From: Lingula anatina
Lineage: Eukaryota > Animalia > Brachiopoda
DNA length: 64,000 nucleotides
Direction of reading: 5' to 3'
NCBI GenBank assembly: GCA_051362555.1
Contig: CM120640.1
Coordinates: 13,330,001-13,394,000, forward strand
A program made the translations under genes and the position numbers. A model generated the notes under the pieces. That model saw only the letters and a program-made list of their open reading frames with translations, was not told the DNA's origin and did not search any database. This document shows positions 3,872 through 44,672 of the stretch, piece by piece (positions within the stretch are counted from its first letter, which is position 1; every line of letters starts with the position of its first letter).

Positions 3872-5817
3872 CTATTGGTTGAAAGGAAAACAGCTCTGTA
3901 ATAAAGCGGTTTTTAGTGGCATTCTGTCGTCATAGAGTGTGGGAGCCTGCAGGATTATACCGAGAGTTCCAACCAAGCATGCTGTAGTGAAAATCCACAG
4001 AAAAAGCCGATCCAACACCATGGCTACATACCTCCAATCTTCTTTTACCTGAAATTATCGTAAAGACGTATGATTATAGTAACGCATTTCAAACCGAGCG
4101 TCGTTGACGTAAATGCACTATTTAAATCCATTTACTAAGCAGATGTAATAATATGTGGCTTGCTGGGTTTTAATATCACCGAATAAGACGCTAATTGATG
4201 GCTTAATGCTTCTCCTAATGGTGACGTCCGGATGAGTACAGACCTGGCTGTAATGATTTCATTTCTAATATTGATCTCACCTATCGCAATTAAACTTACC
4301 TCTGACAAAAAGTTATCACCTTTCAAATTTATAAATCATTCACAAAATTAATAACTCTGTGCACAAACAATTTTGTTTTTGCGAATAAAAACATACATTT
4401 TATTATTTTGTAATGCTATAGGCAGAGAAGAGACCTACTCTAAACTAAATAAAAAGAAGATATAAACAATTAATTCCCTTCCTATAGAAAAGCATAGGTT
4501 CAAGTAAAAAATTCATTTAAACAAGCGTAAGATAGAGGTTAAAAATACCAACCAAAAAGAACCGTAAAGCTGAAAGAAACTTGCGGGGAAAAGAAAACAA
4601 GCAAGCGCCATTCTTCATCCAGCTCCAGCCTTTGGGTGACTCACCATGTCTTCAACATCTTCGTTCTTTAGGTGGTCGGAGATAAATGTTACACCTTCCA
4701 ACGCTTTCTGGATGTGGACAGGATATTTTCGTTTCCTCAGTCCGGGGTTCCTTTCCTCCTGCCCAAGGAGCAAGATTTCTTCGTGACCCATATGATTTGC
4801 ATCGCAATTTTGTCGACTGTTTCCGAAAGCGTCTCGCATTTCCATTCCATTGCAAGCCCGCACCATCACCTTTGGCGTCTTTTCCCCTTCCGGCGTGGGT
4901 CGCCGCATCATCAGCAATCTCGGTAGAATCTGGAGGAAAACCTTCTTAACCCAAGGTGACATCACGTGGGTAGATGGACTTCGGAAGTGGACATTCAGCA
5001 CCACGACCGTCACGATAATTGACACAGATACCAGTATCATGGTGAAGAGCAGGTACTTGCCGATGAGGGGAACCACAATTGAAGTCGGCGGAATCAGGTC
5101 GGCCAATAGCAAGAAAAACACAGTGAGTGAAAGCAGAATGGAGATACACAAAGTAATCTTCTCGCCGCTGTCCGATGGGAGGTAGAACGTCAAAACAGTA
5201 AGGAAAGAAATAGCCACACAGGGGATTATCAGATTGACAGTGTAGAAAAGAGTTTTTCTACGCAAGGTTACGTTAAAAATAATAAAAGGATAAGGCTCAG
5301 GACAGCAAGTATAGTATTTTGCTTTGCGTCTGGCAGGAACACTTAGTAAGTCCCACTCGACACTGCGTGAATAGTCCTTCAGGTCAATGCCATAGCCGAT
5401 TTCATAGTCATCATTGTAATCATCTGGCTGGCATATATGCTTTAAATCCACTTGGAAACCATCGTATGTCCATGACCCAAATTGCATAATACAAGTTTGT
5501 TCATCAAAAGGGAAGAATTCCACGTTGATGGGACAGGCACTCTTGTAAATAGCGGGCGGCTCCCATTGCACCTTTCCTGTCGGATGAACGGTTGCTTTCG
5601 TCATTAAGGTGACCTCATAATTGCCATCTGCGCTGAAATTCGCAATGAACAACTGGGCTGATTACTCGTGTATTAACGGGGCGACCACGATCACTCTGTA
5701 TTCAATGCCTTGAAGTTTCGGGATTTGGGTAACATGACAACGGGTCACATGTAACAAAACTAAATAACTACATGTTTGTACACTAACATATGGGTTATAC
5801 ATCTATCTATCTATCTA

Positions 5818-5870
<53 letters not shown>

Positions 5871-8800
5871 TAGCTATGCGTTATGCCCAATAGGCATCAC
5901 ATACAAAGAGGATTGTGCGTTAGAATGACAAAGGAATATAAACTGTAAAGTAGAGAGTTTTGCTTCCAAACTATCTGGATAAACTTAACTCAATTATTCC
6001 AATCCTCTTTATGTGTTCAAAACACTTAAGATTTTCTCTTTCCAGTGCAGTGCAAACAAAACATGTATGCTACGAACAAGGGTAAAAGAAATGGGGAAAC
6101 ATGGCAACGAAGATAAAATTAAATGATGGGATCGTTTTTAATGACATAAATCATGCAACGTATCGGGGGAATGAAGACTGAAAAGTTTTGATTGATATCA
6201 GAGTTAATATATTCGAAAATTAGTATGTTTTACGACATGCATGGTCCATTAAAGCTGGTGCTAATGCTATACATTCAAAATGAAATAGAAATTTAGTTTT
6301 TTAGTGTTGCACCAGCTAGCTGAACTGAGAGATTACGTCATGTATCTCCATTCTGTTTCCTCTCCTTATAAGAAGATATTGATATTGCTGTCTTATGTGG
6401 CTGCATTCCAAGGGACCCGAGAAGACAAATTGCAGCAAAAAAATATTCAGGATGCTTTTGTACTTCTGAAAAATCTAAGAGTCTGAAATCAGAACTGAAA
6501 GCTGCCGTTAATTAGTGTCTATTTTAATGTAAAAATAAATTGTCTTGAGAAGATTTCATGACTAAGTACTAATTTCATGAAATGTATCTGGCATCATTAG
6601 TATATTTTCATATGTGATTTTGTAATGCAAAAATGATATTGCCACTGAGGATGATTTCAAAGGTCGAGCAACAGCTTTATCTTTTGTATTATCAATCCTA
6701 CCGGGGTATGACATATAGAAAATAATCGGCTGATTTTTGTTTCCTGACAAAAGCTAAATCTAGTTGAAGAGGGGAATGTCAGTAGATTGGACAAATACTT
6801 ATCGAAAACTAAAACTTCTGAAATGGCGAGCGATTTATGAAGCGACCTTTTAAAATATACCAGTGAAAGTACTACATTATAGACGTCGTGCGTCTTAGTT
6901 GAGCTGAGCAACGTCACTTACTTATTATACAACACTACATCCGGAAGCCAGATTCTGTCTGCAGGGACGTACAGGATATTCACCCCACCATAATCTTTAG
7001 GGTTCCACCGCAGTTTGTAGTCGTCCCATTCCTATGTGTTTAGAGAAACCAATTTGTAAGCATATCACATGAAATGCACACTTGTAAATTAAATTTTTGA
7101 CACATTATCTTATTCTTAAAGCTAAATGTGTAGATATTACTGGTCGTACGTAACAGCTATATATATATAACGGTTGAAAATTGCAGCTACAATTTATAGT
7201 GCTAAACGTAGATATGCGGAGGGCCTATTCGCTTTTACTCTGATGACATTCAATAGTGTGTTAAACTTTTTCTTTGTACAATTCAGAAAAGTTTAAGCAC
7301 AAGAGTGGGAGTCTTGAAAAGTGCAAGAATCTACCCTAACACAGTCCGTGGGCATGGGTTCAGGTTTCACATAGCTATGGGGAAAACTAATTATTTTTGC
7401 AAATCGAAACCTAACTCCTTGCTATTTTTCTTAGGACATTTTCCAGCCCGTACTTATTGATTTTCGTAATTAAATGATGACAAAATCCATAACAATCATA
7501 AATAAGTTGACGAAAACTCACACTTCAGCATCAAAAGCAAGGGTGTAAGTGTGTAAAAAACATTTGTAAATGTATATTCAAAAAACACATATAATTTATA
7601 TTGCCCTTTGTATGGCACTGGCAACAACGTCTGAAGCATCTGTTTGATCAGCTGGCAAGGTTGCAACAAGGCTCTATGTATACCAGCACAGAGGTTTAGT
7701 GCAACACTTCAAAATGGATTTTATTATAAACAGCAGATATCAAAGGTTTGAGGGCTTTCCGCGAATATGTTATCTATACTTTCATAACACAATGTGGTTT
7801 TAATTGTAGTTTAAGAACATTCTTTTCGGTAGTTTAAGTTTTAAAATAAAAACAAAATCATTTTGTGAGCGCTAGCTTACACTGCCGTAGTAGTCTAAAT
7901 TTACCGAAACATTTCTTTATACATTAGTGAATATATCCAGAAAACTTAATTCCAAACTAAAGTAATTTTTCAGAGCATGATTGACCAAAAAATTGCAATT
8001 TGCAATATATCATCACTTCCATTTTCGACAGGAATAGATTCTGAGAACTTGGGACATGCCAAATGCGCAAATCTCTCCAACAGGAAGGAGTCCGCCGACG
8101 TGCATTGTGTGGCTTGACCAGTGGAAATCGACAGCGAATTGCATTAGTTGTTGAAGCGGTCTCCTTGAAGACCTACTTACATGCATCAGCCACACGTTGG
8201 TAGTCATGATCTGGTTCTTCTCATCCTTAAGAATGAAGAAATCAGTGAGAAATAGGTTGTTGTTCAATTAATATACATGGCATGCAATTTACTTGAGATA
8301 AAACATGAAGAAAAACGCATCGAAAACGCTATCAAAATCCGTTCGATGGAGTGTTTCTAGACAATGATTCGCCCCTGAGCCTTAAAACGTATCATCTAAC
8401 ATGTAAAATGTTACTCGTGTAACCTAAGGAGAATACCAAATCATTGGACTTGATTAGTCTAATTTCGTGTCATATATTCTCCGTGCTCTTGGCTATAGAG
8501 AATTGATTCGAGTTATTGTTTAAAGGAGGCATTTGTGCACGAGCCGTTAATCGCCATTGGGTATATTCTAATTTAGAAATTTTATAAGAACTCAGCTGTA
8601 AGCTTTCTTATGCAATTGGGCAATAATTGGGCAATAATTCACCTAATAATTCACCATGTAACTCTTTCCAGCAGCTATGCCCTCGACTGGCATTTAATTT
8701 CCGTCGCTGATGACAATGTATATGCATTTTCTTTCGTAAGCGGTTTTCCAAAAATGAAATAAATTATTTCTTGAATATTAAACTAGACTGAGTATGAAGG

Positions 8801-16262: not shown

Positions 16263-17230
16263 CAGGGGTGGAAAGAAGGTCAGAATTTTTCAAGTTTACA
16301 TTAACGGGCATCTATTTTTTATTGGAAGACGGTCAAGATTTTTCAAGATTTCGTTACTGCTTTCCGTGACTTTCTACAGCCCCCTTTACACTGGACAGCG
16401 TCCTTTCAACGTCCCGTAGTACGGCTCCGTTTGAGAGTAAAAAAATGATACTTAACGTGCAGACAACTGGCCGATCATTGAGCAATCATTCTGTAATCGA
16501 AGCGACCCTGTGCCTCCTTACTATACGGCCACAGCAATGCAAGTTTCACCTATAACTTAAAGGATGCAGAAAGGACGCCGGTGAATGTAGATGTCATGAA
16601 ACTATAGTCGCCTCGAGTGGTTTAGATCAAATCAAAAGCTGACAGTCATCCAAATTAACTATCATCAGTTGACAAGCTTAATAATTGCTGATGCAATTCA
16701 AAGGACTGGTAGTTTATCAGAGGGTACGCTAAAGGTCGTACACAATGAACTTGTTAAATACGCACCGTCACACTCCCCAAGCCAGGTAATGCCAGGTAAC
16801 TCGACCTGTAAGATTCTTGGTAGGCTTTAATATTTTTTCAATATCTCCCCCTTATTTCATGGGGTAATATTATTGGTATTCTTTATTGAACTTTTGATAT
16901 CGATATTTAAAACAAGTGAATTCAAACACGGTCGCTAATATTCATGAAATAGATCGCTTTCAGTGTATCTTGAAGCAAGCACATGTCCAGGCATTAATTT
17001 TGAGGAAGAAGATGACAAAATTTGGTTGAGGAAAAACGCAAAAAATTAAAGAGCGGTAATATAAGAGGAGAAAGAAAAGATTCGGAAAAGCTCTAATAAA
17101 TGCTTCCTACATGTAATCCTAATTGTGTGTGTGTGAGCGTGTGCAAGGGTGGAGATGGGGCAGTGGAGGATGAGCCAACAAAGATAATTTGGAAGACTGG
17201 CAGAAAATATCTCTGGATCCGCCCTTAGCG
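16263..17230. repeat. Composite decayed DNA-transposon remnants
   Basis: Left half of the 36885 MITE family at 16263 and right end (ctggatccgccct) at ~17213-17225, with a second repeat starting agccccctttacactggac at 16378 in between. Confidence 0.6.
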
Positions 17231-17503
17231 GTTACTGCATTCATCACGCTCACCTGTGTGTGGTAGAACTAGACCTATATACATTTGTACCTGTGATTAT
17301 GTAAATCGCTGCGTCCCACAGAAATAAGAAAAGGGCATATTGGTTACTCAGTTTTAAAAATGTTGTGATATGTTTGTTGTGTTGCCCAACCGGACCCAGG
17401 CTTTGAGCTGAATTTGACAACACCAGATCTCTTATCTGTATTATTTTTGTTTTTCCAGATTTGAAAAATATGTTGTTTACACTATGTTATTTACGTATAT
17501 TTG

Positions 17504-18201: not shown

Positions 18202-18665
18202 AGCCCCTTTACACTGGACGCCGTCGTTTCTGCTTTACTTGCCGACAACTGGCCGACCATTGAGCATTATTCTGCTTGTGTTTCGTTTCTACGACCACAA
18301 CGATGCCAGTTTCATGGTCGCACAAAGGACGCAGAAAGGTCGCTGTGTTCGTAGAAAGGATGTTTCGTCGGATGTTTGGTCCAGCATCCTTCAGGACAAG
18401 CTCTCCAATCGAACCAGCCACCAGCAACTTATTTTCCTTAGTGGCAAACACTGGATATATTTGACATTTGACTACAAGAATTTGCAAATAAGTAAGTCCA
18501 AGTAGTAAGTTTGAAAAAATATATATATGTGTTTGTGTGCATGTGTGTGCGCGCGTGAGTGTGTGTGTGTGTGAGCGCGTGCGGGGGTGGGGATGGGGAT
18601 GGAGGATAAGCCAACAAGATTATTTGGAAGGCTGTCAAAAATATCTCTGGATCCGCCCCTGGTTA
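18202..18665. repeat. Second copy of the same composite repeat
   Basis: agcccctttacactggac...gacaactggccgaccattgagca...gcagaaagg aligns to 16378-16575; the GT tract plus ...tctctggatccgcccctg aligns to 17125-17226. Confidence 0.65.
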
Positions 18666-19257
18666 CTACAGGGATTGCGTTTGCTGAATTGCGTCAAATG
18701 TGCTTGTCATAAAAGAGCGACCTAACGGTACTAATTGTTGTTTGACAATAATAACCATGTAAGGTCTCCAGTACGTGCAAAGGGAGTGGATTGTCCCTTA
18801 CTTTTCTGAAAGTTTAATTCGCTTAGTAAGAGATATTACATCAGGATTTTATTTATTCATTTACTTATTTATTTATTTTACAAATAGGTTTTATATCATC
18901 TAAAAATCAATTTATGCCATGATTAAGGCTTCAAATCTCGGCCACGATTTGTCGTTTGGCCATTTTTTGTGATGGTAGGCCTTCATTAATGTACTTGTAT
19001 GATATACGCGAACGTGTAGTTATTGATGCTCAGCATCAATCTATGTCACTTCTAACTATCTCAACGGTCAATCTGTTCTGTTTTGGCAAATCATTAAAGG
19101 AATAGCGTTAATGACGTCATTGTCCACTCCTTCCAAGAGTTTATTACACAAATATAGCCTTCATATCATACAGTTAACAACAGCCGCAGCATTCTTCTAG
19201 GAGTCCACTGATAGCCAGTCAGTCCATGCGTAGTGGCTTGTAAAACAGTGTGACTTG

Positions 19258-19455
19258 TCATACGCGGCACAGTTCAAGTTTTGAGGTTTGGAGTGGCATT
19301 CTGTCGTCATAGAGCGTGGGCGCTTGTAGAATAATGCCAAGAGTTCCAACTAAACACGCCGTTGTGAATATCCAAAGAAAAAGCCTGTCCAGCACCATTG
19401 CCACATAGCGCCAATCTTCTTTTACCTACAAAAATAAGCATCCCTATATGGGTAG

Positions 19456-19500
<45 letters not shown>

Positions 19501-22500
19501 AATTTCATGCACATACATTGTAACTCCTTATAATTCCTTTTAATAAAATTACCAAAGTTAAATAATCAATCGATCAGTCTTATATTTCAATGTTAAAGTG
19601 TATTTAATCAAGTATTACATGTCAAGGTTCACCTAAACGTAATTTGAATTTTAGTGTATGGCCTCTTTATTATAAAATAATACTAATGAATTTGAATGTT
19701 TGTGCGAAATCACAACGGCGACTTTGAAGTAAAGCCATTTTTAAAATGCTGAAATCATAAAAAAATACTTACCCTTTATCTGGCCCATAGAAAAATCAAA
19801 CATTTAGTTCACACAAACGAAATACAAAAACAAATTCTTCACTGCAAAACGCTACTTTGAAATAAAAAGCTGTTTGATCAACAAAATAAAAGGAAACCCG
19901 CAGTTAGCGTAAAATGAAAAGAAATAAGATTACAAATGTTCAGGGGAATATCTATTTAAACGATTACCGGTTGGTGCGATGAAATGATCCCTGAAGCACA
20001 AGGGTTATTATTTATACAGCAAATGCGCAAAAATAGATATAAAAAGAACACAATATTTCTCAACCTCGGTGTGGAGACTGAAATCAAATACATGTAGGAA
20101 AAACAGTAAATAAATTGTTATTTTCATACATGGATGTAAAAGGCACGCAGAAAAAACACTAGCACTGTTAGAGCTAGGTAGCTGCTACAGTATCACACGA
20201 AGCACGCGATGTATTGTTTTCCTTTTCTTTGAACTCACCATATCTTCAAGATCTTCGCTTTTCAAATGGTCGGAGATGAATGCAACCCCTTCCAGCGCCC
20301 TCCGGACCTCTGAAGAATACTTTCGGTTCTTCAAAACGGAATTTCTGTCATCTTGTCCACGAAGGAGACTTTCTTCTCGACTGTGGCGCCTGTCGCCGAA
20401 GATTTCCCGTACCTCTACACCATTGCAAGTTCGCACCATCACCTTTGGCGTCTTTTCCCCTTCCGGCGTGGGCCGCCGCATCATCAGCAATCTCGGTAGA
20501 ATCTGGAGGAAAACCTTCTTAACCCAAGGTGACATCACGTGCGTAGATGGACTTCGGAAGTGGACATTCAGCACCACGACCGTCACGATAATTGAAAGTG
20601 ACACCAAGATCATAGTGAAGAGCAGATACTTGCCGATGAGTGGAACAACTAGTGACGTTGGTGGAATCAGGTCGGCCAATAGCAAGAAAAACACAGTGAG
20701 TGAAAGCAGAATGGAGATACACAAAGTAATCTTCTCGCCGCTGTCTGATGGGAGGTAGAATGTCAAAACAGTAAGGAAAGAAATAGCCACACAGGGGATT
20801 ATCAGATTAACAGTGTAGAAAAGAGTTTTTCTACGCAGAGTGACATTAAAAGTAATAAAAGGGTGGGGCTCGGGTTTGGAATTGTAGTATTTTGCCTTTC
20901 GCTTGGCTGGAACGTCTAAGAGGTCCCATTCCACGCTGCGAGAGTAGTCTTTGAGGTCTATTCCGTACCCAGTGGAAAACTCTTCACGATGACCATCAAG
21001 CTCACATATGTGTTTTAAATCCACTTGCAGGCCATCGTATGTCCATGACCCAAACTTCATAGTGCAGGTCTGCTCATCAAATGGGAAAAATTCGACATTT
21101 ATTGGGCAAGCACTCTTGTATATAGCTGGTGGCTCCCATTCCACTCTCCCAGTTGGGTACACAGTGGCTTTCGTCAACAAAGTCACCTCATAATTTCCGT
21201 CCGCGCTGAAAATTGTAATTGACAACTAAATTGATAAATTTAAGAATTTTGTCATTCTATGGTTATAATCCCTAAGCTAGCTCTCAGCCCGCAAATAGAC
21301 AATAAAACATAAATGAAACAAACCCCATGCAGAAAGGGAGTTAGTGAACATAAAAAAGCAACAAATGATCGGTACCACAGGTACTAAGCTTACTACTAAA
21401 AAAACGTGAATTATGCATGCTGGAACATTAAAAAACAATTATTTTTTAAAGAATCCCATGGAAAATTTGAAGGATGTATCCCCTAAAATATAAAAGCAAC
21501 CACAGATGAAAAGATTAGCAGTCCATGCATCGTGGAAAGGTCAAGTGCTTTAATTCCCGTCTCCGCCAGGTTACATCATAGATATTTTTTTTCCAAGATG
21601 GTACACATTAATATGTATATATATCCTTTCTGACTACCTGGATATACCGCTAGGAAAGAGGTTTATCTAGATACAGCTGTAAGATGAATTTTCTTAAATT
21701 AGAGACTAAATAACATCAGTCAAACACGACGTTTCGGTCCACCACCCACGGAAATTAATCACGATTTTTTGCCAGAATACGACGCTCAGTAAACAGGATG
21801 CTACCGTAAACCCTCGGGAGTAGATCCTGGTCGCAGTGAGTGGGAGTTGGGGGGGGGGGGTCTAATAAAAAAAAGCATTTCGTACCAATCTTCGTCTTTC
21901 ACAAGTATCGAAGCATGTTTTTCAACTGACAGTATGGTTGCAGGTCTTAAGATGTTGGCTGATGCCCGTAGGAATGTCTGATTTAACAACGCATCCCAAA
22001 TGTTTAAATGTTCTTTTCGTACCCCTGTAATGGTTTTTGATCACCTGTGATTTATATACCACGATTGTCGTTGGATTGGAGTACGGTCTTTAAGTTTTAC
22101 GAGTTGTTGTCTCAAGGTGTTTAGAGCTGCTGATTCTGCGCGAAATCAACATTCACAAGGTCCAAAGGTGGCGGACAGAAATGTCGTGTTCGACTGATGT
22201 TATTTAGTCTCTAAGTTAAGAATAATTCTGTTTTATCAATTTACCGATTGTGACATAAATAAGGCAATGGTCATATAAGAACATTAAAGTTACGGAACAT
22301 ACATGCATTTGGTATACACCAGATACTGACATGCGTATGACGCACGGGTAAGGTGAACAGGCGTGACTCCTGTACGCACAAATCGTACTTAAGTTGTGTG
22401 CAATTACATGTATCATTGCTCATGTCAGCATGTGGGTTAGAAACAGGCAATAGTTAAAATTTCCACAAACTGTGTTTGTTTCAATCCAATCTTTCAATAC

Positions 22501-25500
22501 GTGCTGGCATATTGTAGTTTTAGTAAAGCAAGAAAGACAAATATGAGGTGCCATTCGTGCAGCTAAATAATAATAATAATGATGAACAGACAGATCGTGT
22601 TTTCCTATACACCAAAGTGTAATAGAATGCCCGAAAGAAGACCAAATGGTCAACATCTACATGTATATATTCTATGACGCTACATGATTGAGGCACACGT
22701 ATTCTCTCAGGTGGCGCATGCATGTAAGAAGTCAGCGAAGCTGAGCGATTACGTCGTATATCTCCACTCTGCTGATACTCTCAACATCCTTAGCAGTTGT
22801 TAATTATAATATTTACACTCCTACGATGAGATAAGATGTTACCCATGCATCAAAAGATGCATATATATACTAGTACATTTGTACAGGGGATATGAATGTT
22901 AAAGTAAGCCACTCCTGCATAAATCGCTGAAAAAGCGTAGAGCCTGAAACGAGAGCTTAAACCAGTTTATTAGTAGCAGTGATTCACACGCGCGCGCGCA
23001 CACACGCACACACACACACACAAACTTAATACGGATTTCAAACAACAGCACTTGATTAGCTCTGATTTCTGTGAACTCATACATGTACACAGTAATATAA
23101 ATCAAAGCAAATCTAAGCTGTTTATTGCGGTTCGTTTGCAGCTGCATGCTCCTCTTTAGATAGCTGCACACAACGTTAGTGATGTCATTGATTTGGAACA
23201 TCTAAATGTCGACCCCATATTTAATATTTGTATTTCTACATGTGGCAAATGTTACATTTCTAGTTATGATGCGGTTTGAATAAACCTATTTCAATAAATA
23301 AGTATAGGCATTCCATTCCAAAGTATCAAAATATCACTCATTACTTAAAACGGTTATTCAAAAGAAAAAATTAAACATAAGCGAAGTGGCGATGGATAGC
23401 CCCATTGTGTTTTATTTTTTTCATAACTTACTTATTATACAGCACCACGTCGGGTTTCCATAGTTGTTCTGCAGGAACATATAGGACATCAATATTGCCG
23501 TAATCTTTGGGATCCCAGCGTAAACTGAGGTCTTCCCACTCCTAAGGAACAATTAATGTGATTGCTATATTATGCATGTTCAAATGAGCGCAATTACTGC
23601 TAAGGTTTGATTAGACTGAAAGTAAAGTAAGAAGCTTTTGATGGACCTAGAGAGAGGAAACATTTTATAAAATTCATAGCTAAAATTCTGGTTCAAGCTC
23701 ACGGTCTCAAGGAGAAATATAAAACAACTCCTGACAGCAAATCCGAAGATTTCCTTTGTGTGTTATTCATTATAGCATTGTGAAATTTGTTACAATAATA
23801 TATGAAAAAATGTTGAGTTTAAGAGTAAATAGATAAGCCCTATAATTTGGAACAAAATATAGCATTTTAATCTAATTGTTATATCTAGGAAACTAAATAC
23901 TTAAAATATTTGTCACAAAAAATACCCTGTGCGTCCAGGGTGTCCTGACCCATTTCAAACCCATGAATCAGACCAGACCATGTAGTCAGTGCATTTATTT
24001 ATACAGTTATATTCATCATGCGATTTCACACACATACCAGTACGTTAGGTTGCGTATCCATATTATTACCCAATACAGATTGTCAGTTGCCAACTCCAGA
24101 ATAGATCACATTTGGCATAAGCAGACAGTTAAATGTATATTATTTTATTTTTGTAGGCGAGAAGATGTGAGATGATGAAGGTAAGGTAGCTAAGTACGGG
24201 GAGAAGAATGATTTGCAGCACGGAAAACAATGATACGCATTCTTGTGCCGGTGTTATGCTGGCCACGAAACGGGGCATTTAATGAAATACTGAAGTGATA
24301 ACCTTTGAATCTTGTTTCATATTAACATTTACTACTGGTTCCAATTTCAAACAATTGGAGCAATGCTTTGCCAGATGGAATCTTCCTTCAAATGAGTTCA
24401 ATATTTTTTTTTCTTTTTTCAAACGGTATGTGTTAAATGTGTGAATCCAATAAAACTTTCCTTTCTATTGTAATTTGAAAGCTGCACTTACGTGTGTAAG
24501 CCAAACATTTGTGGTCATAATCTGATTCTTCTCATCCTATAAAAGAAAAATGGTTCAATGCACAGACATTTACATGAAAGTCAATTTTTTACAACAGTTT
24601 GGCAGAAAGCAGTCCTTTTAAGCATCAACAAAATAATGATTTTATCAATTGCTTATATTTCTATTTATTTTACTACAACATGGTTTTCTTCAGATATCTA
24701 CAAACATATACATGTATGGTATTTGATATATAATAGGTAATGAAAAATCGTGATTGCAAAGACACCCAATTAAGAAAACGTGGAGCACCATTCTTCACAT
24801 TCATGTAAATAAAACTTATTATAAAATCATTGCCAACATGCTTGGACCAGATGCTGGACTAAATACACGGGTGAATTGAAACGGCACTCTCTTTGCACTG
24901 CGCCGCACTGCACTGCACTACACTGACCGCTATTCTCACACTTACCACATCGATAAGCTGTGTCAGTCGAAGGCCCAGTTTGACTGTGAGGTTGTTATTA
25001 TTGTCACTGACAGGACGAATCAGTTTATTGTAGCCTCTTTTTTCAAGTAAATCTCTGTAAAGTCTTTTGGCATCGACTGTCCCCTCGCATACTAAAATTA
25101 AGAGTTAATAGCTTGCAAACAATATTCACAAAAAAAGTAACATATATATAATCAATCATTTGCAGCAAAGAGACCGTCAAGTACCGCCATCTATCAGCAA
25201 AAATCCCCATATTTATGCAAATACATTCTGTTTGTCAGCGAGTTTTATCAAAAAAATGTTATCTATACAATACAACCAGCACGCACTGTAGTAACAGAAT
25301 AGCAGAGGATTTAATAATGGATTTTCAGAATCTCGGTGCCTAGAATTGCATCATTCAGCATAGCTGCAATATAGCAGCTCTCTCTTGTAAATCGATTGCA
25401 GTGTTTTTCAAAAGACCCTAACTTAATCATGTCAGTATCTATTAATGCATCGGTAAAAGAAGCACGTCGCTGAATACGTTACTATCTAAGTCCTTTCAAC

Positions 25501-28500
25501 AGATCAACTGTTACAACATTATCGAAAAAGGCATTTTAAGAACCTTCAAGAATCTTCATCCCCAATGTGTTTAATAACATTTTATTTACACTTTGAAAGG
25601 GTTTTTGTGGAGGCCCTTGTATCTTTTTTCTCTTTTCAAAATACGAGCTCTTTAATCAGGCGAAGCACTCTCTTGGTCGACAGGAGCTCGTAAAAAGATA
25701 CGGAAAACATCCTTCCCCCCTTGCAGCCAATTTGGTGGTTAATTGGCATTGGCACGGAGTGGTTTGCTCTCAGCGTTCGCTGCTTCTATCCAATTGATCT
25801 AACATAAACCGAATACGCGACTGATCAACACTCCTAATTAGATTACAAGCCTGGTTTCAATCTGCAGCGGTTAATGCCAATAAATTCCGCAATTGGAAAC
25901 TCTCCGCTGCAGGGAAACGTTAATAAGAGTTTCATCTTAAAAGTGTTCTTTGCACTGTGTTAAAAAGGACAGTTGTAAATTGAACTTATGAAACTTTGTT
26001 TAAATATTTGGACAGACAGGCTGTGTTTCTAAGCACACATTTCTTCACTTTAGCCAAGTGATCGCATAAGGTTACTTGTCTTCCTTCAAAATCTCAACTT
26101 GCGTAAAAATGTAATTGTAAGCGAGGACGAGTTAGTAGTTGTTACATTACTGTAAAAAAGACGCTGCGTACCCGTGTACAACGGTACCGGTACAGGTTAC
26201 CCCAAAAGAAAACGGGAAGATGTACGACATCGACAATCCTGCATAATGCCTTTTTATTATAATATTTGTAGAGATATCTAAGAAGCCCCGCCATTTCGTC
26301 AGATCTGCCGGCGGTCCGTGACTTTTTGTGACAATGAAGACAGACTAGACAAGTGTGCAGCTTCCGTCTAGCTGCCTTTCTCGTAAGACTATGTCCACGG
26401 TCATATCATATCCCCACCGGGAATAGACTGCTTTTATCACTTCGATCTCGACTACTTCGGAATAGCTCACTTTTCCCGTCCCATTTTGTCGACAAATGAT
26501 AAATAGCGTTCCACCATGAATGGTTTTATTGATTTAACAATAGCAGTTCCGGTACTTCAAGGGATTATTGGAAATCCCTTCTCGAACCTGTCATTAATCA
26601 ACAATCCTTAAATGCGTACTATTAATTGTTATAGGTTAAAACCCCTTTAAAGATTTTAAAATTAATACAGGCATGTTTTAGATTTATGAAAAAAATTATT
26701 GGGTATTGTGTTATCATTGTAGTTTAAAAGCCCTACCTGTAAGCAAAATAAAAGGGACTTATTGTTATTTCATGCTTCAGAGGATATCCTTGCTGTTTGT
26801 TTCACTAAAGCGCTATAAGCTGGCATTAGAGACTGGTTTAAAGAGATTAATGGCTATCAAGTTTTTAGGGGAGCAGGATACTTTTGTCATAATGAGTATT
26901 AACGTACATAACCATTTTAAATTCTAAATTTCCTAGAGAAATGAGCACCTTTTCACACCTTCTTTCAAAAGACAACTACGAATATTGTCTTTCACGAAGG
27001 TTCCTGTCATCACGTCTGCAGGAACCTCCGCGATGCCCGTATTTCTCGTCAGAACATGTGTCCAGGTGATGCGTAGCACGAACTTTTTAGGAAAGAAATA
27101 CAGTGGCAGCATTTTCCTGTGGATAGAACGCTACGGGGTACAAGGTAAACAGTAAAGTCTAAGGGGCGATGATAAATCACGCGCTACATTTTTACAGACA
27201 AATCATGCTTCTTGATTGGTATCAATATCCCGCTCCCCAGGTATCCCAACAAGATACAGCTAACTGCACTGTTCCAAAGTTCAGCAAGGTAAGCTGCAGC
27301 CTGCTGGTATGCCAAAGTTCAGCGCGCGAAGTGATGAGTCGTCTGCGTTTAAGTCTGGCAGTTTGCGCACTGAATACCAAAGAAAAAAAATGAGTACCCA
27401 AAATAAATCAATTCCGTGAAGAACTTGGATCGGTATCAACCAAATGAAAGATACTGTTAGTTTCTCTATGCTGTGTGCTGTTTAGAAAGAAAGTGACTGG
27501 ACTAGTTAATTGTATGAGTGTGTCCATGTGCACGTAAACTAAAGATAAGAACTCTCACTTCCCAAAATACACAGCTCAAGTACTGACGGTAGATGTACCA
27601 GTTATCGCCAGCTTTCGTGAAACAACAGTGCTTGCTTAAAGATCAACTTGAAGTGTTTATGTTATATTAACATACATTTGGCCATCATCTGGGTTTACTA
27701 TCTATACAACAAACACGTTCATTCTGGCAATAAAAATACATTAAAAATAAGTTAGAAACAAAATAACTATAATCGCACATTACGCACGTCTGTTAAGAAG
27801 TGGCATATTTCAAAATTTTGTTAAAATGCAACTTTTCTATTTGTTCTTTGTTTACTTATCTTATTCGGTCTGTTAACTTTCGTCTTGTGGGGCCAAACCG
27901 AAAATGATCGACGGCTGCTTTGTACTGGATGATTTTTAGTCTAGCTGCTAAGGCAGTCCCACAGGTTACATATGTATTTTGATCTCAGTGCTGTCCGTCT
28001 GCACTGCTAGGTTTTATATTTATGTTTTATTAAAATAATTGTGTGTATCTTTTCAAGCGTTTAGATGAAAAATTGAGTGCACAATGAAAATTAAAAGCCC
28101 TAAACTTATCAACTCCGACTTTTTCTATACTTCTGTACTTTTACTCAAACATCGCATTTCCAGTGGGTTTCAGTGTTCAATTGCATAATGATTTAACGAT
28201 CGAACTTAAGAGAAGATTAAAGATTTCTCGACATTACTTAAATCTATCCGACGGTGCCTTGAACGGAATTTCAATCACTTTTTTGCATTTGTTATAGAAG
28301 TTGAAAATGGACACCAATAGCCACCAGAAAAAATAAACACCAGTCAGATATATCTTCATGAATAATAAATAGGGATGTAACCGGTCATGCATATCATTTA
28401 AGGGCATAGATTTATATTTCCCCGATGCCATTAACTACGTAAGGCCTGACGTAGGGATTATAAAACATAATTACTGCCACAGCTAGTGTTATAGATGTTT

Positions 28501-29668
28501 TCAGGTCAGCTTATTCAGCAGATTTAATTACAAAAAAAAATGTGTCTATCCGACCTTACTGCACCACGTTCACGTTTGGAATTCAACAAAGAATTTCAGT
28601 GTGCATGTAATAAGTATTACAATCTGATATACATTGCGACAAATATCATATTTCATTGCACAAAGAGAGACATTATCAAAGTTTTTGTGCGTTTAACATA
28701 ATGTTTATTGAACTGTTTTAAAATAATTGCTCAATAACAATGATACTTATGTTGTTATGTCGTCACTTATAAATGAAGAAATTATGGTAGCATTGTTTTC
28801 ATAAGTAAAGGCACAGTGTGGGCTATGAACGACACCACTTAGCTGTGCATAGACACTATAGTTATTTTTATAATAGGGCATATTTGCGCAACATAGGCCA
28901 CCTGAGTCCCGCCGTGACCCCGTGACTGTTGAATCCAGAGCCAATATTTGTTTGTTTGCTGTATACCCACGGGAGGTAGACATACGAGTAGTATAAATAT
29001 AGCACGCAAATTGAGATTTTCGCTTTACATTGTGTACTGAAATTAGGCCGTTCATACAGATCCGTTGTCTGAATTGTTCCCACAAGTGCCTCTAAACCCC
29101 TATACGGACTATATGCTGCCATCGGTCTTAAATCTAGGAGACTCCATGTTTACGGATTTTGGGGTCGCAGAAATAAAACATTCCATCAAACATAATATCT
29201 TATATGAAATTATTAATTAAACTTAGTGTTACTGATATAAATGGTGATATTCTAGTCACATGTATAAAGTAGTATTTAGGTGTAAAACATTTACAGTTTG
29301 GCAGCATGAGCTCTTTTGAGTCGTTAAAACGGCTCAGTATTTGCTGTATCCTATTTATTGAAAATTTTCTTTAGTACGGCACAGCTGTGAGAATAGGTCG
29401 ATATGCTATGTTATTTTATATCTCGTGTCTGGAGACGAATCAATGTGAACAGGCTTTTCACTCCATCGTCACAAACCTTACTCTGCAAAAAATGTATTTT
29501 TTATTCTGTAAGATAAAAAGAACACTTATTGGTTCATGTCAAAAGGATCCATTCCCGACATGCCATGCATGAAAATAAACCCTTACCTCTACACTCTAAT
29601 AAGAGAAGGCTCAACATGTGCAGAAGAACGGCCCGTCCTAGGCAATGGTTCACTTGTGACAGTGGCAT
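19258..29668 (-). CDS. nAChR alpha-derived subunit lacking vicinal cysteines (gene B, paralog of A), 6 exons: 29587-29668, 24946-25091, 24492-24536, 23432-23541, 20239-21205, 19258-19425; 505 aa
   Basis: Same exon sizes (146/45/110) and phases as gene A. Signal peptide [27 protein letters not shown]; Cys-loop identical to A; TM1-TM4 nearly identical to A; loop C reads YYNSKPEPH. The total of 1518 nt is in frame. Confidence 0.92.
19458..19499. repeat. (CA)n microsatellite just upstream of the gene B last-exon acceptor
   Basis: Direct reading. Confidence 0.95.
21686..22228 (-). mobile_element. Truncated Penelope-like retroelement (GIY-YIG region remnant) with inverted terminal segments
   Basis: Frameshifted minus-strand peptides [16 protein letters not shown]..(VVYK), [13 protein letters not shown] and [10 protein letters not shown] resemble the Penelope linker/GIY-YIG region. 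There is a ~61-bp inverted repeat at 21686-21746 / 22167-22228. Confidence 0.72.
22743..22780 (-). promoter_or_regulatory. Intronic element complementary to the TM2 codons of gene B (candidate ECS)
   Basis: Plus-strand gagcgattacgtcgtatatctccactctgct matches the exon sense strand at 20705-20736; it lies in the same intron as the gene A element. Confidence 0.7.
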
Positions 29669-36884: not shown

Positions 36885-37052
36885 CAGGGGCGGATTGAGG
36901 CCGTCTTCTGGGTCTCCTGGAAGACGGTCAGATTTTAGAGTTTACATTTATGGATATCTAATTTTTTCTGTCGGAAGAGAGTCTAAAATAGAGGATGGAG
37001 CAACAAAGATAACTTGGAAGACTGTCAGAAAATAGCTCTGGATCTGCCCCTG
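36885..37052. mobile_element. MITE, 168 bp, CAGGGGCGGAT family
   Basis: TIRs caggggcggat/atctgcccctg with a 5-bp flanking direct repeat ctacg. Internal sequence recurs at ~16263-16340, ~17165-17226 and ~18600-18661. Confidence 0.8.
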
Positions 37053-38517
37053 CTACGTTATTGTTGCTTTACCTTTAAAACTCGCAAGGTAACGTTAAAT
37101 ATTATGATGTCACTCGAAGATCATCATAAATGTGAAGTTAAAAGGGTTAAAAACGTATTTGACAAGATAGTTGTTGGCAAAAAGGGTCGTTTTTAATGCA
37201 CGGTAGATATTGCTTTCAGTGAGATCAACACATAGCCCATGCAAAGCATGCATACTTAGCTAAAAACATAAATGCCACAACAAAGCCATCTTTAAACTCG
37301 CAAGATTACCACAAAAAGGTTTTCGTGTTTTTTATCACTTGTACCATCTCAATAATCTTTGTCCCAGTCTAAATTCAAATGACTTCCACGTGTAGTTTTA
37401 CAAAAAATAAATACTACCACAACATCTCTCTTCTTTCATGGAACTTTGTTGTTGAGAGTAATTGTTACTGGTTTCAGTTGGCGCTTTACTGCCGTAATCG
37501 CTACCTTCTCCTCTGAAACACGGTTCAGGTTCAAAGCTTAATGGTCAAAGAAAAAAGTTGTGCCCACCCCCTTTCAGCTGCTGCTCGATTTAGGTAAAGC
37601 ATCCTCTGTCTTACTGAGTCTATAACCGGTGTCTGTTTCGTTACGTGGGTAGATTAACTTCGCATATTTCTCCTTTTGAAGCACGTATATAGTCTCTGGA
37701 AAAACACAATCGAAGCTCGCACTCACACGGGTATGTTATGTATGAAAGGTTGGTGACCGAAAATGGAAATTAGTAATGATGGTCGATTGATATGTTATTG
37801 AGGACTAATATAAAGAGCTGAAAACGGGAAAATAACGGCTATGATATGAACATTGGTGGCGCCTCGTTAGACATACACGGTATGATACAATCAGGCAGAA
37901 TAATTTCCTCCGTTTAATTTTTATAGTGTTATGTTGTGTAGGCCCCCCTAGTGGTGGCGCCTCCTAGCGGAGGATACCAGGAGACGCTGGGCAGGTTGGG
38001 CAAGTAAGTTAATAAGTCAACTGTCGAGGTGTTTAAATGTAGACGAATTGAAGGTGATCAGCAGAATAAGTCCAGAAACCAAATTCCATCATGCAGATTT
38101 TGTCGTCGAATGGGAAATGGCGTATGTGGGCTCTTGTAAATGACCACATCAACCGGTAGCCAGGCAGTTCTTGTCGGCAGCGTTAAAATTAAAATGGAGA
38201 TAAGTGCGCTGCATATGTTGCATCCTTGAATTTAGTTTTGTGGGGAAAACTTTAAAAATTATTGATTTTATTGATTTTCATAAAAGGATTATTATGAAGT
38301 GAAGTCGAGTATGGAGTCAACACCACTAGCAGACCAAGATTGCCAGTATCTTATGCTTTCTCATGGAGCGTTAAGGTCGAGCACAGAAAACTTATCACCG
38401 TCTTGGACGAACTCACGCTTCACCATTATCGCCGAAAGCAAACTAAAATGATGACTGCGCTTATTTCTACAGCTTTTCTGTATACGTCAAATGATAGCCG
38501 GATGCCATTCTTAATTA

Positions 38518-40520: not shown

Positions 40521-41954
40521 TTATGAAGTTAACGCTTCTTGCCTATGAAAAATATGCGGAACATTAAAAAACAATCCACATGTTCCGCCAATGGTCACTA
40601 TGAAAAATAAATAAAGCAGCAAACGGTCCACCACCAAAGCAAAGTACTTCCAATCTTGAACTTCCTGAAATTATAGAAAGAAAAATCCTATTATGTGTAA
40701 TCGACATGTAATACCGAAACCTAATGAAATTTTATTACGCACCGTGCATTCCTACATACTTACATGTATGTACTGTGTAGTATGCATGTCTAGGGCTAGG
40801 CGCACGGTTACAGAGTTGAGTTCTTCGCTATCGCTATCTCATAAGCCATAGATGATCAGAAAAAAAAAGGAAAAGAGAAAGGACACACAGAGAAGGGTGG
40901 AGATAATATAAAGAGAGAAGGAAGCAGATACAAACTCACATTCTGGGTATCGTCGCTTTCCTTCAAGTGTCTAGCAATGAATGCAACGTCATTGGCTGCA
41001 TCCATCAACCTTTTTGGTACATTTCGCTTACTGCTCTCACGGCCATCTTTCGGATTTTGATTGCTGGCCGTCTTGTATATTTGCTCTGCCTTTGTAGATT
41101 TTGGTGCTTTTAAGCTAGTGCCCGTGACTTCTGTTGATAATGAGGACTCTTTCAATGTTGCCATCCACCTTTCCTCGGATGTTAATTGTTTCTCTGCTGG
41201 ACAGCCTCGTCTGTATTGGTTTTCGTGATTCGGTCGCTTAACAAGGAGCAGTCGTGGTAAGTAGTTCAGAAATACTACTCTCACCCACTTTGGCATACTG
41301 TGAGAATTTGGGGATCGAAAATGCCAGTTTATAGTCATTACAGCCAGAAGAACAGATACAATGTTCATGATGAAAGTAAACATGAGGAATTTGACTATTA
41401 GTGGGACCGATAACGATGTCGGAGGTAATAACTTTGAAATAAGTAAGATGAACACTACTAATGCGATAAGAATAGAAATGCTGAGGGCAACTTTCTCGCA
41501 GGCTTCACTTGGCAGGTAAAAAGTTGAAACGCTCAAAAAGGAAATCAATATACAAGGTATGATCAAATTAACAATGTAAAACAAAGTTTTTCTTCGAATC
41601 CGTATGTAATAAATAACTCGCGTCTCTGCAGGTTTGTCATCTTTGGCGGCTCGATACACAATGGCCCCCGGGCCTACTACAATATCCCAAGTACCACTAG
41701 GCATGTAGTCGGCCAGGTCTACTGTACTGTAATTCTTAAATGGTTTTTCTTGATAATACCAGTCGAAACCAACTTGTTCCCCAGTGTACGTCCAAGAGGC
41801 GAAATGCATTTCACATTCTTGCTCATCAAAAGGGAAATACTTGACATCGATTTCACATGAACTTTTGAAGATAGCTGGCGGGACGTGTAACATTGTTCCG
41901 TCTTCGTATACGACTACATTGGACCGGTAATCTGTTTGATATTTACCATCAGCA
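40521..41954 (-). CDS. Gene C 3' cassette 4: exons 40940-41954 and 40521-40664
   Basis: Phase-2 acceptor ctag|T GCT GAT GGT; Cys-loop [15 protein letters not shown]; TM1-3; donor GTGAGT; terminal exon EVQDWKYFALVVDRL...FHRQEALTS*. ORF intact. Confidence 0.9.
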
Positions 41955-44672
41955 CTAGAATTAATTAAAAGTAGTAAAATAAAACTCAACAAAAACAAAA
42001 CTTAAAAACATAATAAACTAAATATAAAGTTGTATTTAAAGGATTGCAATATACCAATAGCTAGAAATCATAAGAGTAAGCAAATAATGACAACACAAAC
42101 AGAAAGATTACAGTTTTAACAGATACAATTCTTACTAAAAACAAACCTACGTAAAATCCATGCATAAGATATTCGTTGAGTTAAAACATTGGAGTGCAGC
42201 TGGGAGATCAATGTGGCAACTGTGTGATAAATAACCTTGATAACATTCTACATGTACTTCTGTAAGGTGCTCTCACAGTGAAGTAACAGTGATTTGAAGA
42301 ATAACAGTTTTGAAGAACGATGGCATTTTGCATCTTTATGTTATTTCCATAACAAAAATTTCTTAAGTTGTTTGGATAATAATGGGAAATATTTGTGTGT
42401 TGTTTGTATCTTGGCTTTTCTACTGGTATCTTGGCTTTTCTGCTGCTCGCCGCTTCTCCCGATGGCCTACAAGTCAGCTTCGACATGAATGTGCAAAGTT
42501 GACATGTTTAGAGCACACTGTGTATGTCCAGACTGAACGTCTTTTTAACAAAGATAAAATTGCGCAGAAATTCATATCATCATCAACTGATTTATTTTGC
42601 CAACATCAGCGACAAGGCGGGAAAGCAGGGACTGCAGCTTAAAATGCACACAGGAGAAACTGGTCGATGAATGATATAGGTTGAGCAGGTTGAAACAATG
42701 AAACGTGGTCAGTATAATCTAAATACAACTGGTCATGTACATCCAATGTGGTTATTCAAAAATAAAGAAATTTTAAAGATGTAATATCTATATGTAATAG
42801 AAACTGGTTGCTTTCAACTACAAAAAACAGATAATGAGTTGAATAAAAAAAAACGGGCATAAGGATAAAGCATTCCCGTTTGCAAGCTTTTATTCTTGAA
42901 TATGATTGATGTACATTAGGCGAAAAACTGACATCTCTTCAAACTGGCTCAATTGAGATGCGACTTTGATTTGCTTGCTATGGTCCTTGTCGCTGTTTTT
43001 ATTAATAAAAGCATCCTAAATATTTCTAAATCATATTCATCTGGTGTTTCAATACATTTCTTTTTCTTTTAATCGACAAATCCGAATAAAATGTCTGTAC
43101 GGGGTATTTTTCATATCTCCATTAAACATTTGTATGCCCCATACCAAAAAGCTTGTAAAATGGCTATTCCTTATTATGTAATACAAAATACAAGGAAATT
43201 AGAGCAAAAGCATTCGGTACTACTTCCTAAATAAATATCCATTGTTTGTAATTATCAATTCTATCAAAGCAGGGTTTTTAGATGAAGCAGCTGGTTAACT
43301 CCCCTTTCTTCTACACGTACACGTACAAGTATAGTTGCATCTACACAATGAATACGTTTTTTACAATCCATGAGGTGAAATATACAGTCTTCTTTTTTTG
43401 CCTAGTACTGAAGATTCTATCTAAATACTTCCTAAAAAGGGTAATCCTAGCAAATCACTGAGCCCAACCAAGTAAACGTCAGCTAGTCGGTGGTCACACT
43501 TACATCAACAAGGAAACAAACCATGACGATTTCTACAGAACTCCTGAAATCTCTATCTCTAAATGTACTATTTTCACAACCGTGCAACAATTAAATTATC
43601 AAACATAACGTGTATCACACGCTATGCATATGTTTGTACTATATTTTGGACCCGAAACATAGGCTACACAAGTCTTTTTAACAATATTTCAAATTGGATT
43701 TAACTACATGTATATGCAACGTTTAAATAGACAATAGTATGCTAAGGGGGGCTCCTTAACGGCTGTATATCAGCAACAAGGTCAATTTACTTCATTCAAA
43801 TACCTCGACTAAACGATATACACAAACTGTTCCCCTATTAACAATATCCCCTTGGATAATACTGACAAATATTGCAATCACGTAGAATATCATGTACAGC
43901 AATTTCAAACATACAAATATCACCATCAAAGACCTTCATTTACGTTAACAATCACCGTAATTTCAATTTAAAGTAACATTAAGTTTTATATATATCCTAC
44001 TATCTCCGGGCAGCCTTATGAAATAAAAAGCAGAAAACAGGAATAAGTGGTGACTCCCGGAAATGAGGCGGAGAAAGTGGGGGCATCTGGATTCAAACGC
44101 ACCCCCACGCTCCCTACGTGGGTATTATTCAGATCGTAAAAAATACTATGACCGCTAAGTGAACTTTAAAAGCATTTTTACAAGCAAATAAGGACCTATA
44201 TATACTACATTATTCAGCATCATTAAGCATTTTAGGACAAGTTGAGGTTTTTCCAACATAAATTTACTACGTTGACTTATTCTGTAAAGGAAAACCTCGG
44301 CACAATAAGAATTAAGATCCCATATCAACATTTTACAGGTAATGTAAAATATGTAATTAGAAAAAGCTAATTTTCAATGTCAATAGCTTATTTCAATGAG
44401 ACTGAACCGTGTATAAGTTCGTGCATATTATAACTAAGTTACAACAGATGCTTAAAACAATTCACTTCTTTTGTCCCCCAAAAAGGTATCTGCAGTGTAA
44501 ATCTTGTACGCATTCAAGTGCTTCCATGTGTTGGCAGTTGTTGCAGTGTGAATACGTAAGTTTATTTCATGTATATTTGAGTTTGGATTTTTTTCATGTA
44601 AGAAAACGCGCGCAGCTCATGCGCGTGTTGGTGTGTGTGCGCGCGTATGTGTGTGAGAGAGAAACGTTTGAT

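What the first reader, a model, noticed from the sequence alone, without database searches (positions are those of the whole stretch)
20705..22780. The same TM2-pairing element is conserved in paralog B, with G.U-preserving substitutions
Seen: the intron 4 sequences of A and B otherwise look unalignable, yet both keep ctgag(a/c)gattacgtc(a/g)t(g/a)tatctcca(t/c)tctg (6325-6355 vs 22741-22771). The three internal differences each switch between Watson-Crick and G.U pairs against the unchanged TM2 codons, and do so only on the transcribed strand. The U.C mismatch at the T2' codon is retained in both. The element persists despite a ~540-bp Penelope-like insertion between it and the exon. Inference: selection acts on RNA structure, not on a DNA motif.
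Basis: partly seen in the sequence, partly recalled or inferred. Interest (0 to 1): 0.78.

Follow-up and report, generated by a model that had tools for sequence, protein, structure and literature searches.

The report
Intron guides editing of receptor pore
Two neighbouring acetylcholine-receptor genes of the lamp shell Lingula keep the same short intron sequence, predicted to pair with the pore-lining codons and likely guiding an RNA edit (Thr to Ala) at the pore residue that fruit flies also edit.

Summary
The element is real. Paralogs A and B (Lingula anatina nicotinic receptor subunits, minus strand) share a 31-mer in intron 4 (27/31 identical, E 5e-6). It is the best predicted partner of the TM2 codons in the whole window. 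The G.U pattern holds for three differences but is weak alone; two further differences break pairs. The Penelope label was not verified. Public RNA reads show one variant inside the duplex: A>G at 20727, Thr2' to Ala, in 7 of 36 reads (3 of 4 runs, perhaps only 4 molecules). No DNA run was laid, so an allele is not excluded. The same residue (T278) is, by my mapping, the published T>A edit of Drosophila nAChR beta2. An abalone record and spliced cuttlefish-like assemblies carry Ala where genome models and unspliced-looking forms carry Thr. Best reading: an upstream editing-complementary sequence for site-selective ADAR recoding of the pore's 2' ring (confidence 0.8). The mechanism is a known kind; what may be new is one recoding site shared by arthropods, molluscs and brachiopods.

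The parts
22741..22773 (-). Intronic arm in paralog B (candidate editing-complementary sequence); weaker predicted extension to about 22730
   Evidence: 26 of 27 core positions paired, 3 G.U, 1 U.C; pair probabilities 0.93-1.0 for paired core bases in a 2171-nt fold, about 0.4 for the extension
20705..20736 (-). Exonic arm in B: codons Glu-1' to Leu9' of TM2
   Evidence: translation and duplex
20727..20727 (-). Adenosine read as G in RNA: first base of the Thr2' codon (Thr288 of P0002), giving Ala
   Evidence: 7 of 36 reads in 3 of 4 runs; codon effect
6325..6357 (-). Intronic arm in paralog A
   Evidence: 25 of 27 core positions paired; probabilities mostly 0.96-1.0 in a 1391-nt fold
5132..5163 (-). 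Exonic arm in A, identical to B's; the matching adenosine is 5154 (Thr279 of P0001)
20239..21205 (-). Exon 5 of B (Cys loop to TM3-TM4 loop)
   Evidence: tblastn of P0002; spliced loose ends at both borders in 3 RNA runs
21206..23431 (-). Intron 4 of B, holding the element 2016 nt upstream of the TM2 arm
   Evidence: GT-AG ends in the sequence; spliced reads; distance
5633..6921 (-). Intron 4 of A, holding the element 1173 nt upstream of the TM2 arm
21686..22228 (.). 543-bp insert with 62-bp inverted ends (90% alike), predicted to close on itself; class not established
   Evidence: self-BLAST; end-to-end pairing in the fold; no Pfam or hammerhead match
19261..29668 (-). Paralog B, six exons, non-alpha subunit (no vicinal cysteines in loop C)
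   Evidence: P0002, named Lingula anatina; Pfam PF02931 and PF02932
3875..13890 (-). Paralog A, six exons, alpha subunit (vicinal cysteines present)
   Evidence: 100% identical to P0001, named Lingula anatina

Best explanation
The 31-mer is a conserved intronic sequence complementary to the TM2 codons of its own gene; it is predicted to pair with them in the unspliced RNA and likely acts as an editing-complementary sequence that lets ADAR turn one adenosine (20727 in B, 5154 in A) into inosine, recoding the pore-lining Thr2' to Ala in part of the transcripts. Shown: conservation, complementarity, expression and splicing of B, an A>G variant at that base in RNA reads. Predicted: the duplex. Inferred: that the variant is editing, that ADAR does it, that it depends on this element, that A is edited too, and that losing the 2' hydroxyl would change cation permeation or block of mixed pentamers.
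For: Conservation and pairing beyond chance (best and second-best partner of TM2 among 2558 windows, -48.0 and -43.5 against mean -13.5, sd 4.2). A>G on the transcribed strand at 20727: X16 1/5, X19 0/6, X18 2/8, X20 4/17; the only listed variant between 20660 and 20754. Of 39 exon variants visible to me it is the only amino-acid change in the conserved part (36 synonymous; one more is synonymous with its neighbour in the same codon; one lies in the variable loop). X16's read has one other difference, as expected of B; two X20 reads laid only on the short stretch fit paralog A (89% alike over 150 nt, 92% inside the short stretch, my inference). Context U-A-C, with 5' U favoured by ADARs (recalled). 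Drosophila nAChR beta2 has a published T>A edit with a silent Leu edit 5 nt further on, placed in TM2; the only Thr-Leu in its TM2 is T278 = 2'. Haliotis discus hannai record P0211 differs from genome-model P0029 only by S209G and T279A, both reachable by A>G. In a cuttlefish-like cluster full-length forms are Ala on 119 contigs and Thr on 4; forms whose C-terminus runs off at the last intron are Thr on 16 of 16. Lingula has 4 ADAR-like genes.
Against: No DNA run was laid, so an allele is not excluded; other partial-share variants of non-editing kinds occur in the same runs (20755, 20767, 20800, 20838). The 7 reads may be as few as 4 molecules (mates and duplicates). By the kind counts the site was probably not listed (X18 and X20 were in both calls; 18 rows were hidden); X15 had at most 2 of about 22 reads, X19 0 of 6, X12 no coverage. 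Ala at 2' is genomically encoded in several relatives and in window paralog 40859-42001, so an Ala allele is viable. 26 of 30 clusters examined show no Thr/Ala mixture, among them octopus and oyster clusters with many assembled members. No compensatory change was found. The mollusc evidence is protein-level, from unmatched and mostly unnamed records.
Confidence: 0.8

Rival explanations
1. The A>G reads come from a genomic Ala allele of B, of A or of a near-identical copy; the duplex exists but is not shown to be edited.
For: No DNA control; low counts; other partial-share alleles in the same runs; the RNA individuals differ from the window at about 2-3% of exon sites; Ala2' is hard-wired in Potamilus, Sinanodonta, Tubulanus, Dimorphilus, Paralvinella and Teleopsis genome models.
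Against: Share 19% overall, below a heterozygote's half (P 0.0002 pooled, reads not independent); seen in two studies whose animals differ at many sites; right kind of change, inside a 27-nt core of a 963-nt coding stretch, at the residue edited in flies.
Confidence: 0.1
2. The duplex is kept for another RNA-level job, such as bringing intron 4 ends together, timing splicing or hiding a cryptic site in the 1-kb exon; any editing is a by-product.
For: Editing share is low in these samples; unspliced reads at the intron 4 border are about as many as spliced ones in X15 and X20; editing and splicing are linked in insect nAChRs.
Against: The arm targets exactly the TM2 start, about 470 nt inside the exon and 690-1530 nt from the 3' splice site; unspliced reads also occur at the downstream intron, and no alternative joints were listed; only 1 of the 4 paired core adenosines shows a listed change.
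Confidence: 0.07
3. The element is a neutral inverted micro-copy of the exon made before the A/B duplication and kept alike by chance or by gene conversion.
For: A and B show conversion-like tracts in exon 5 (codons about 124-180 and 204-258); the G.U statistic is weak.
Against: The rest of all five introns is unalignable bar one weak hit; the element's flanks are not homologous, so conversion has little to act on; 27/31 identity would not survive the divergence seen at synonymous sites.
Confidence: 0.03

Closest known systems
Drosophila nAChR beta2 TM2 edit (T>A at 3R:20337378; PMC4965139 table S4; PMC8505678 table 1 citing Hoopengardner 2003)
   Same: Same receptor clade, same change, and by my mapping the same residue, Thr2' (T278).
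   Different: Different phylum; the fly has a second, silent edit in the next codon, where Lingula has no adenosine; I could not see where the fly's complementary sequence lies, so homology of the structures is untested.
Vertebrate AMPA receptor GluA2 Q/R site with its intronic editing-complementary sequence (recalled)
   Same: An intronic arm pairs with pore-lining codons and directs a site-selective recoding at the narrow part of an ion channel.
   Different: Unrelated channel family; there the arm lies in the downstream intron and editing is near complete (recalled), here it lies 1.2-2.0 kb upstream and about a fifth of reads are changed.
Distal intronic editing-complementary sequences of Drosophila (criteria in PMC5319793)
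   Same: Conserved, at least 20 nt, within 2500 nt of the site, stem of at least 20 pairs.
   Different: Conservation here is between tandem paralogs of one genome, not across species.
Shab/Kv2 recoding shared by insects, cephalopods and humans (PMC9989829)
   Same: One conserved channel residue recoded in several phyla.
   Different: That paper names shab as the possible exception to lineage-specific recoding; Lingula is not mentioned, and I could map none of its 41 'acetylcholine' rows to 2'.

Membership tests
Intronic editing-complementary sequence (ADAR site-selective recoding) | Conserved intronic segment of at least 20 nt within 2500 nt of the site | tested here: met
   31 nt, 27 identical between paralogs, 1173 and 2016 nt away; criteria
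Intronic editing-complementary sequence (ADAR site-selective recoding) | Forms a stem of at least 20 pairs with the exon on the transcribed strand | tested here: met
   Predicted only: 25-26 of 27 core positions paired, probability about 1.0 in whole-segment folds; no probing data
Intronic editing-complementary sequence (ADAR site-selective recoding) | A read as G in RNA at an adenosine inside the stem | tested here: met
   20727, 7 of 36 reads, 3 of 4 runs, perhaps 4 molecules; at most 2 of about 22 in a fifth run
Intronic editing-complementary sequence (ADAR site-selective recoding) | The G is absent from genomic DNA of the same animal | not tested
   Both read-laying runs went to RNA runs; no matched DNA was identified
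Intronic editing-complementary sequence (ADAR site-selective recoding) | Compensatory changes on both arms | tested here: inconclusive
   Exonic arm identical in A and B; only one-sided changes, 3 of 5 pair-keeping; no orthologous introns available
Intronic editing-complementary sequence (ADAR site-selective recoding) | Editing depends on ADAR and on the element | not testable with these tools
   Lingula has 4 ADAR-like genes; no functional test
Nicotinic acetylcholine receptor subunit | Ligand-binding domain with Cys loop, four TM helices, GEK motif before TM2 | tested here: met
   PF02931 and PF02932; best solved relative human alpha4, E 4e-144, with a near-identical TM2
Same recoding site as Drosophila nAChR beta2 | Homologous residue and same change | tested here: met
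   Fly T278 aligns with Lingula T288 at 2'; that the published coordinate is T278 is inferred from the Thr-Leu spacing and the TM2 placement
Same recoding site as Drosophila nAChR beta2 | Homologous RNA structure (common origin of editing) | not tested
   The fly ECS table was among the supplement files not searched
Penelope-like element (the insert) | GIY-YIG endonuclease or reverse transcriptase remnant | tested here: inconclusive
   Two open fragments (55 and 34 aa) hit no Pfam family; they are short and broken; a resemblance to Penelope GIY-YIG ends is recalled only
Penelope-like element (the insert) | Hammerhead ribozyme in the terminal repeat | tested here: not met
   No Rfam hammerhead match at E<=1 in 21200-23440

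The most novel reading that the evidence does not exclude
Thr2'-to-Ala recoding in this receptor clade is one editing site shared by arthropods, gastropods, cephalopods and brachiopods, either inherited from the protostome ancestor or re-invented several times, with other lineages fixing Ala in DNA. It would join shab/Kv2 as a rare cross-phylum recoding site, and Lingula supplies a compact cis-element with which to test it. A single ancient origin alone I put at about 0.2.
Probability: 0.55. Interest if true: 0.75.

Novelty: new member of a known kind. Interest (0 to 1): 0.62.

Why it matters
Position 2' is the narrow hydroxyl ring of the nicotinic pore; mutations there change organic-cation permeability up to twofold and Cs/K selectivity by 16-18% in the mouse muscle receptor (PMC2229089, abstract). 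A survey of 22 species found recoding sites to be almost all lineage-specific (PMC9989829). A site shared from flies to brachiopods, edited in some lineages and hard-wired in others, gives a direct test of whether recoding is adaptive, ancient or convergent. My searches found no report of mRNA recoding in Lingula.

Tried and rejected
No genome is held, so genome-wide repeat status and the introns of two further Lingula paralogs (P0015, P0030) were untested. The run search listed no indexed RNA holder; RNA runs came by species label. X12 laid no reads. Five other paralogs in the window show no exon-intron duplex above shuffles; one (44940-45945) scored 46 against a shuffle maximum of 49. The second weak intron match has no consistent pairing partner in A and B. 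Editing of the unpaired Lys0' adenosines (20732-20733) or of 20730, 20718, 20712 was looked for; no row was listed at the threshold of 3 reads from 2 starts. The Rfam SCARNA7 hit (E 0.039, far below gathering) is a CA-repeat artefact. Low synonymous divergence around TM2 was rejected as evidence for the duplex: it extends over two long tracts, and 8 of 16 RNA variants in 20430-20852 equal A's letter, as gene conversion would give. The tree is the quick one; the careful search did not finish, so no order of events is claimed. Paper searches returned nothing; supplement searches found no beta2 rows in the files covered. Two look-ups of earlier findings were empty.
Full report
Setting. The window holds a minus-strand tandem array of nicotinic acetylcholine receptor genes. 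Paralog A's large exon is 100% identical to P0001, named Lingula anatina; B matches P0002 exon by exon. A has the vicinal cysteines of an alpha subunit, B does not. In a quick tree of 67 rows A and B are sisters (SH-aLRT 99) within a clade of four Lingula genes, inside the protostome group that includes insect alpha8/beta2 (careful search unfinished).

The observation. They are the only strong match between the intron 4 sequences (E 4.6e-6); the other four intron pairs give nothing at E<=0.1, and intron 4 has one weak collinear extra hit (E 0.008). In unconverted exon parts about half to two thirds of synonymous codons differ, so neutral intron sequence should not keep 87% identity. The element is an inverted near-copy of the TM2 codons and occurs nowhere else in the window; both copies share the same departures from the exon, so they have one origin.

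The duplex (predicted). Exon-versus-intron pairing scores are 64 and 59 against shuffle maxima of 43 and 41; 0 of 5 other paralogs exceed their shuffles. Among 2558 windows of the transcribed strand the two elements are the best and second-best partners of TM2. In folds of the whole segments the core pairs have probability about 1.0 in A (1391 nt) and B (2171 nt), and the insert's inverted ends pair with each other, which would shorten B's loop. The G.U argument needs trimming: three A/B differences keep pairs, but a fourth opens a loop at Lys0' and a fifth breaks a pair in A; P is 0.01-0.07 for 3 of 3 and 0.07-0.35 for 3 of 5. The exonic arm is identical in A and B, inside one of two long tracts of near-identity that look like gene conversion, so covariation cannot be seen.

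RNA reads. Six RNA runs from three studies were laid; five held B, which is transcribed from the minus strand and spliced at both ends of exon 5. On the narrow stretch 20610-20870 one variant was listed between 20660 and 20754: T>C at 20727, which is A>G on the transcript and turns the Thr2' codon into Ala. Counts: X16 1/5, X19 0/6, X18 2/8, X20 4/17. Of the 39 exon variants I could see (18 rows were hidden, some recovered) it is the only amino-acid change in the conserved part. Limits: the 7 reads may be 4 molecules; X15 showed at most 2 of about 22; the site seems not to have been listed. The depth difference between the two calls fits two X20 reads from paralog A that fall below 90% likeness on the long stretch and pass on the short one; if so, both paralogs carry the change, but this is inference. 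Alleles at partial share also occur in these runs, and no DNA run was laid.

Relatives. Ala at 2' appears in 13 of the 120 best homologs, some from genome models. In 30 clusters of 90% identity (at most 15 members listed each), 4 mix Thr and Ala. One is a Teleopsis genome model among hoverfly proteins; one is unnamed (1 Ala, 1 Ser, 13 Thr). In Haliotis, record P0211 differs from genome model P0029 by two changes only, both reachable by A>G, one being T2'A; six genome models have Thr; that P0211 is a cDNA is my inference from its source. In a cluster matching the Acanthosepion pharaonis model, full-length forms have Ala on 119 contigs and Thr on 4, while four forms that diverge where the last intron would start have Thr on all 16 contigs, as does the genome model. 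These contigs are unnamed and not independent, and I saw no nucleotides. The octopus and oyster clusters show only Thr; assemblies report majorities.

Known work. Drosophila nAChR beta2 has a T>A edit and a silent Leu edit 5 nt on (PMC4965139, supplement rows), placed in TM2 by a review (PMC8505678, passages). The only Thr-Leu in fly TM2 is T278, which aligns with Lingula's 2' residue. Edited sites that are genomic G in other insects are described for alpha6 (PMC1919356, passages). A 22-species survey found few shared recoding sites and names shab as the possible exception (PMC9989829, passages and table S5-1 rows); Lingula is not mentioned and I could map none of 41 'acetylcholine' rows to 2', though partial octopus models cannot be mapped. 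Mutations at 2' alter permeability (PMC2229089, abstract only; PMC2219204, listing only). Lingula has 4 ADAR-like genes (PMC6651903, passages). ECS criteria come from PMC5319793 (passages). PMC6896357 (passages) does not mention editing or Lingula; PMC2064938, PMC3263464 and PMC9068888 were seen as passages. Hoopengardner 2003 was not seen; GluA2 Q/R and ADAR neighbour preferences are recalled. Searches found no report of this element or of nAChR editing in Lingula. Unseen supplements may bear on novelty: cephalopod editing tables (not searched), PMC5365144 files 13-69, PMC4965139 files 13-24 and PMC5319793 files 13-19, which may list the cephalopod site or the fly's complementary sequence.

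Mechanism. While intron 4 is still attached, the upstream arm would pair with the TM2 codons in a stem of about 26 pairs; ADAR would deaminate the U-A-C adenosine two bases from the conserved U.C mismatch; after splicing about a fifth of these transcripts encode Ala2', and pentamers would carry a variable number of hydroxyls in the 2' ring. Conservation, complementarity, splicing and the RNA variant are shown; pairing is predicted; editing, ADAR dependence and the channel effect are inferred.

Verdict. A real, selected RNA element, most likely an editing-complementary sequence (0.8). It is a new member of a known kind. Its interest (0.62) comes from the link to the same residue in flies and probably molluscs; the missing DNA control is the main gap.

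Noticed in passing
window 20431-20595 and 20665-20835 (B); 4858-5022 and 5092-5262 (A): Two tracts of near-complete synonymous identity between A and B inside an otherwise diverged exon; many RNA alleles of B equal A's letter. Looks like gene conversion homogenising the TM1-TM3 region while the ligand-binding domain diverges.
   Followed up: partly
window 6466-6500 and 22927-22961: Second weak collinear match in intron 4 (77%, E 0.008), 110-155 nt upstream of the element; no consistent pairing partner found.
   Followed up: partly
window 34327-63959: At least five more diverged nAChR-like genes on the minus strand; the one at 40859-42001 encodes Ala at 2' in DNA; degenerate fragments lie at 37613-38182.
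   Followed up: partly
protein P0211 versus P0029, residue 209: A second abalone difference (Ser to Gly in the ligand-binding domain) that is reachable by A>G and may be another edit.
   Followed up: no
window 21206-21260 and 20200-20238: Unspliced RNA reads at the intron borders are about as many as spliced ones in X15 and X20, so the intronic arm may be readable in these RNA runs.
   Followed up: no
window 16451-17239, 18233-18670, 36988-37052: Short dispersed repeats between the genes (69-88% alike).
   Followed up: no
proteins P0015 and P0030: Two more Lingula paralogs outside the window with the same TM2 sequence; whether their introns hold the element is unknown.
   Followed up: no
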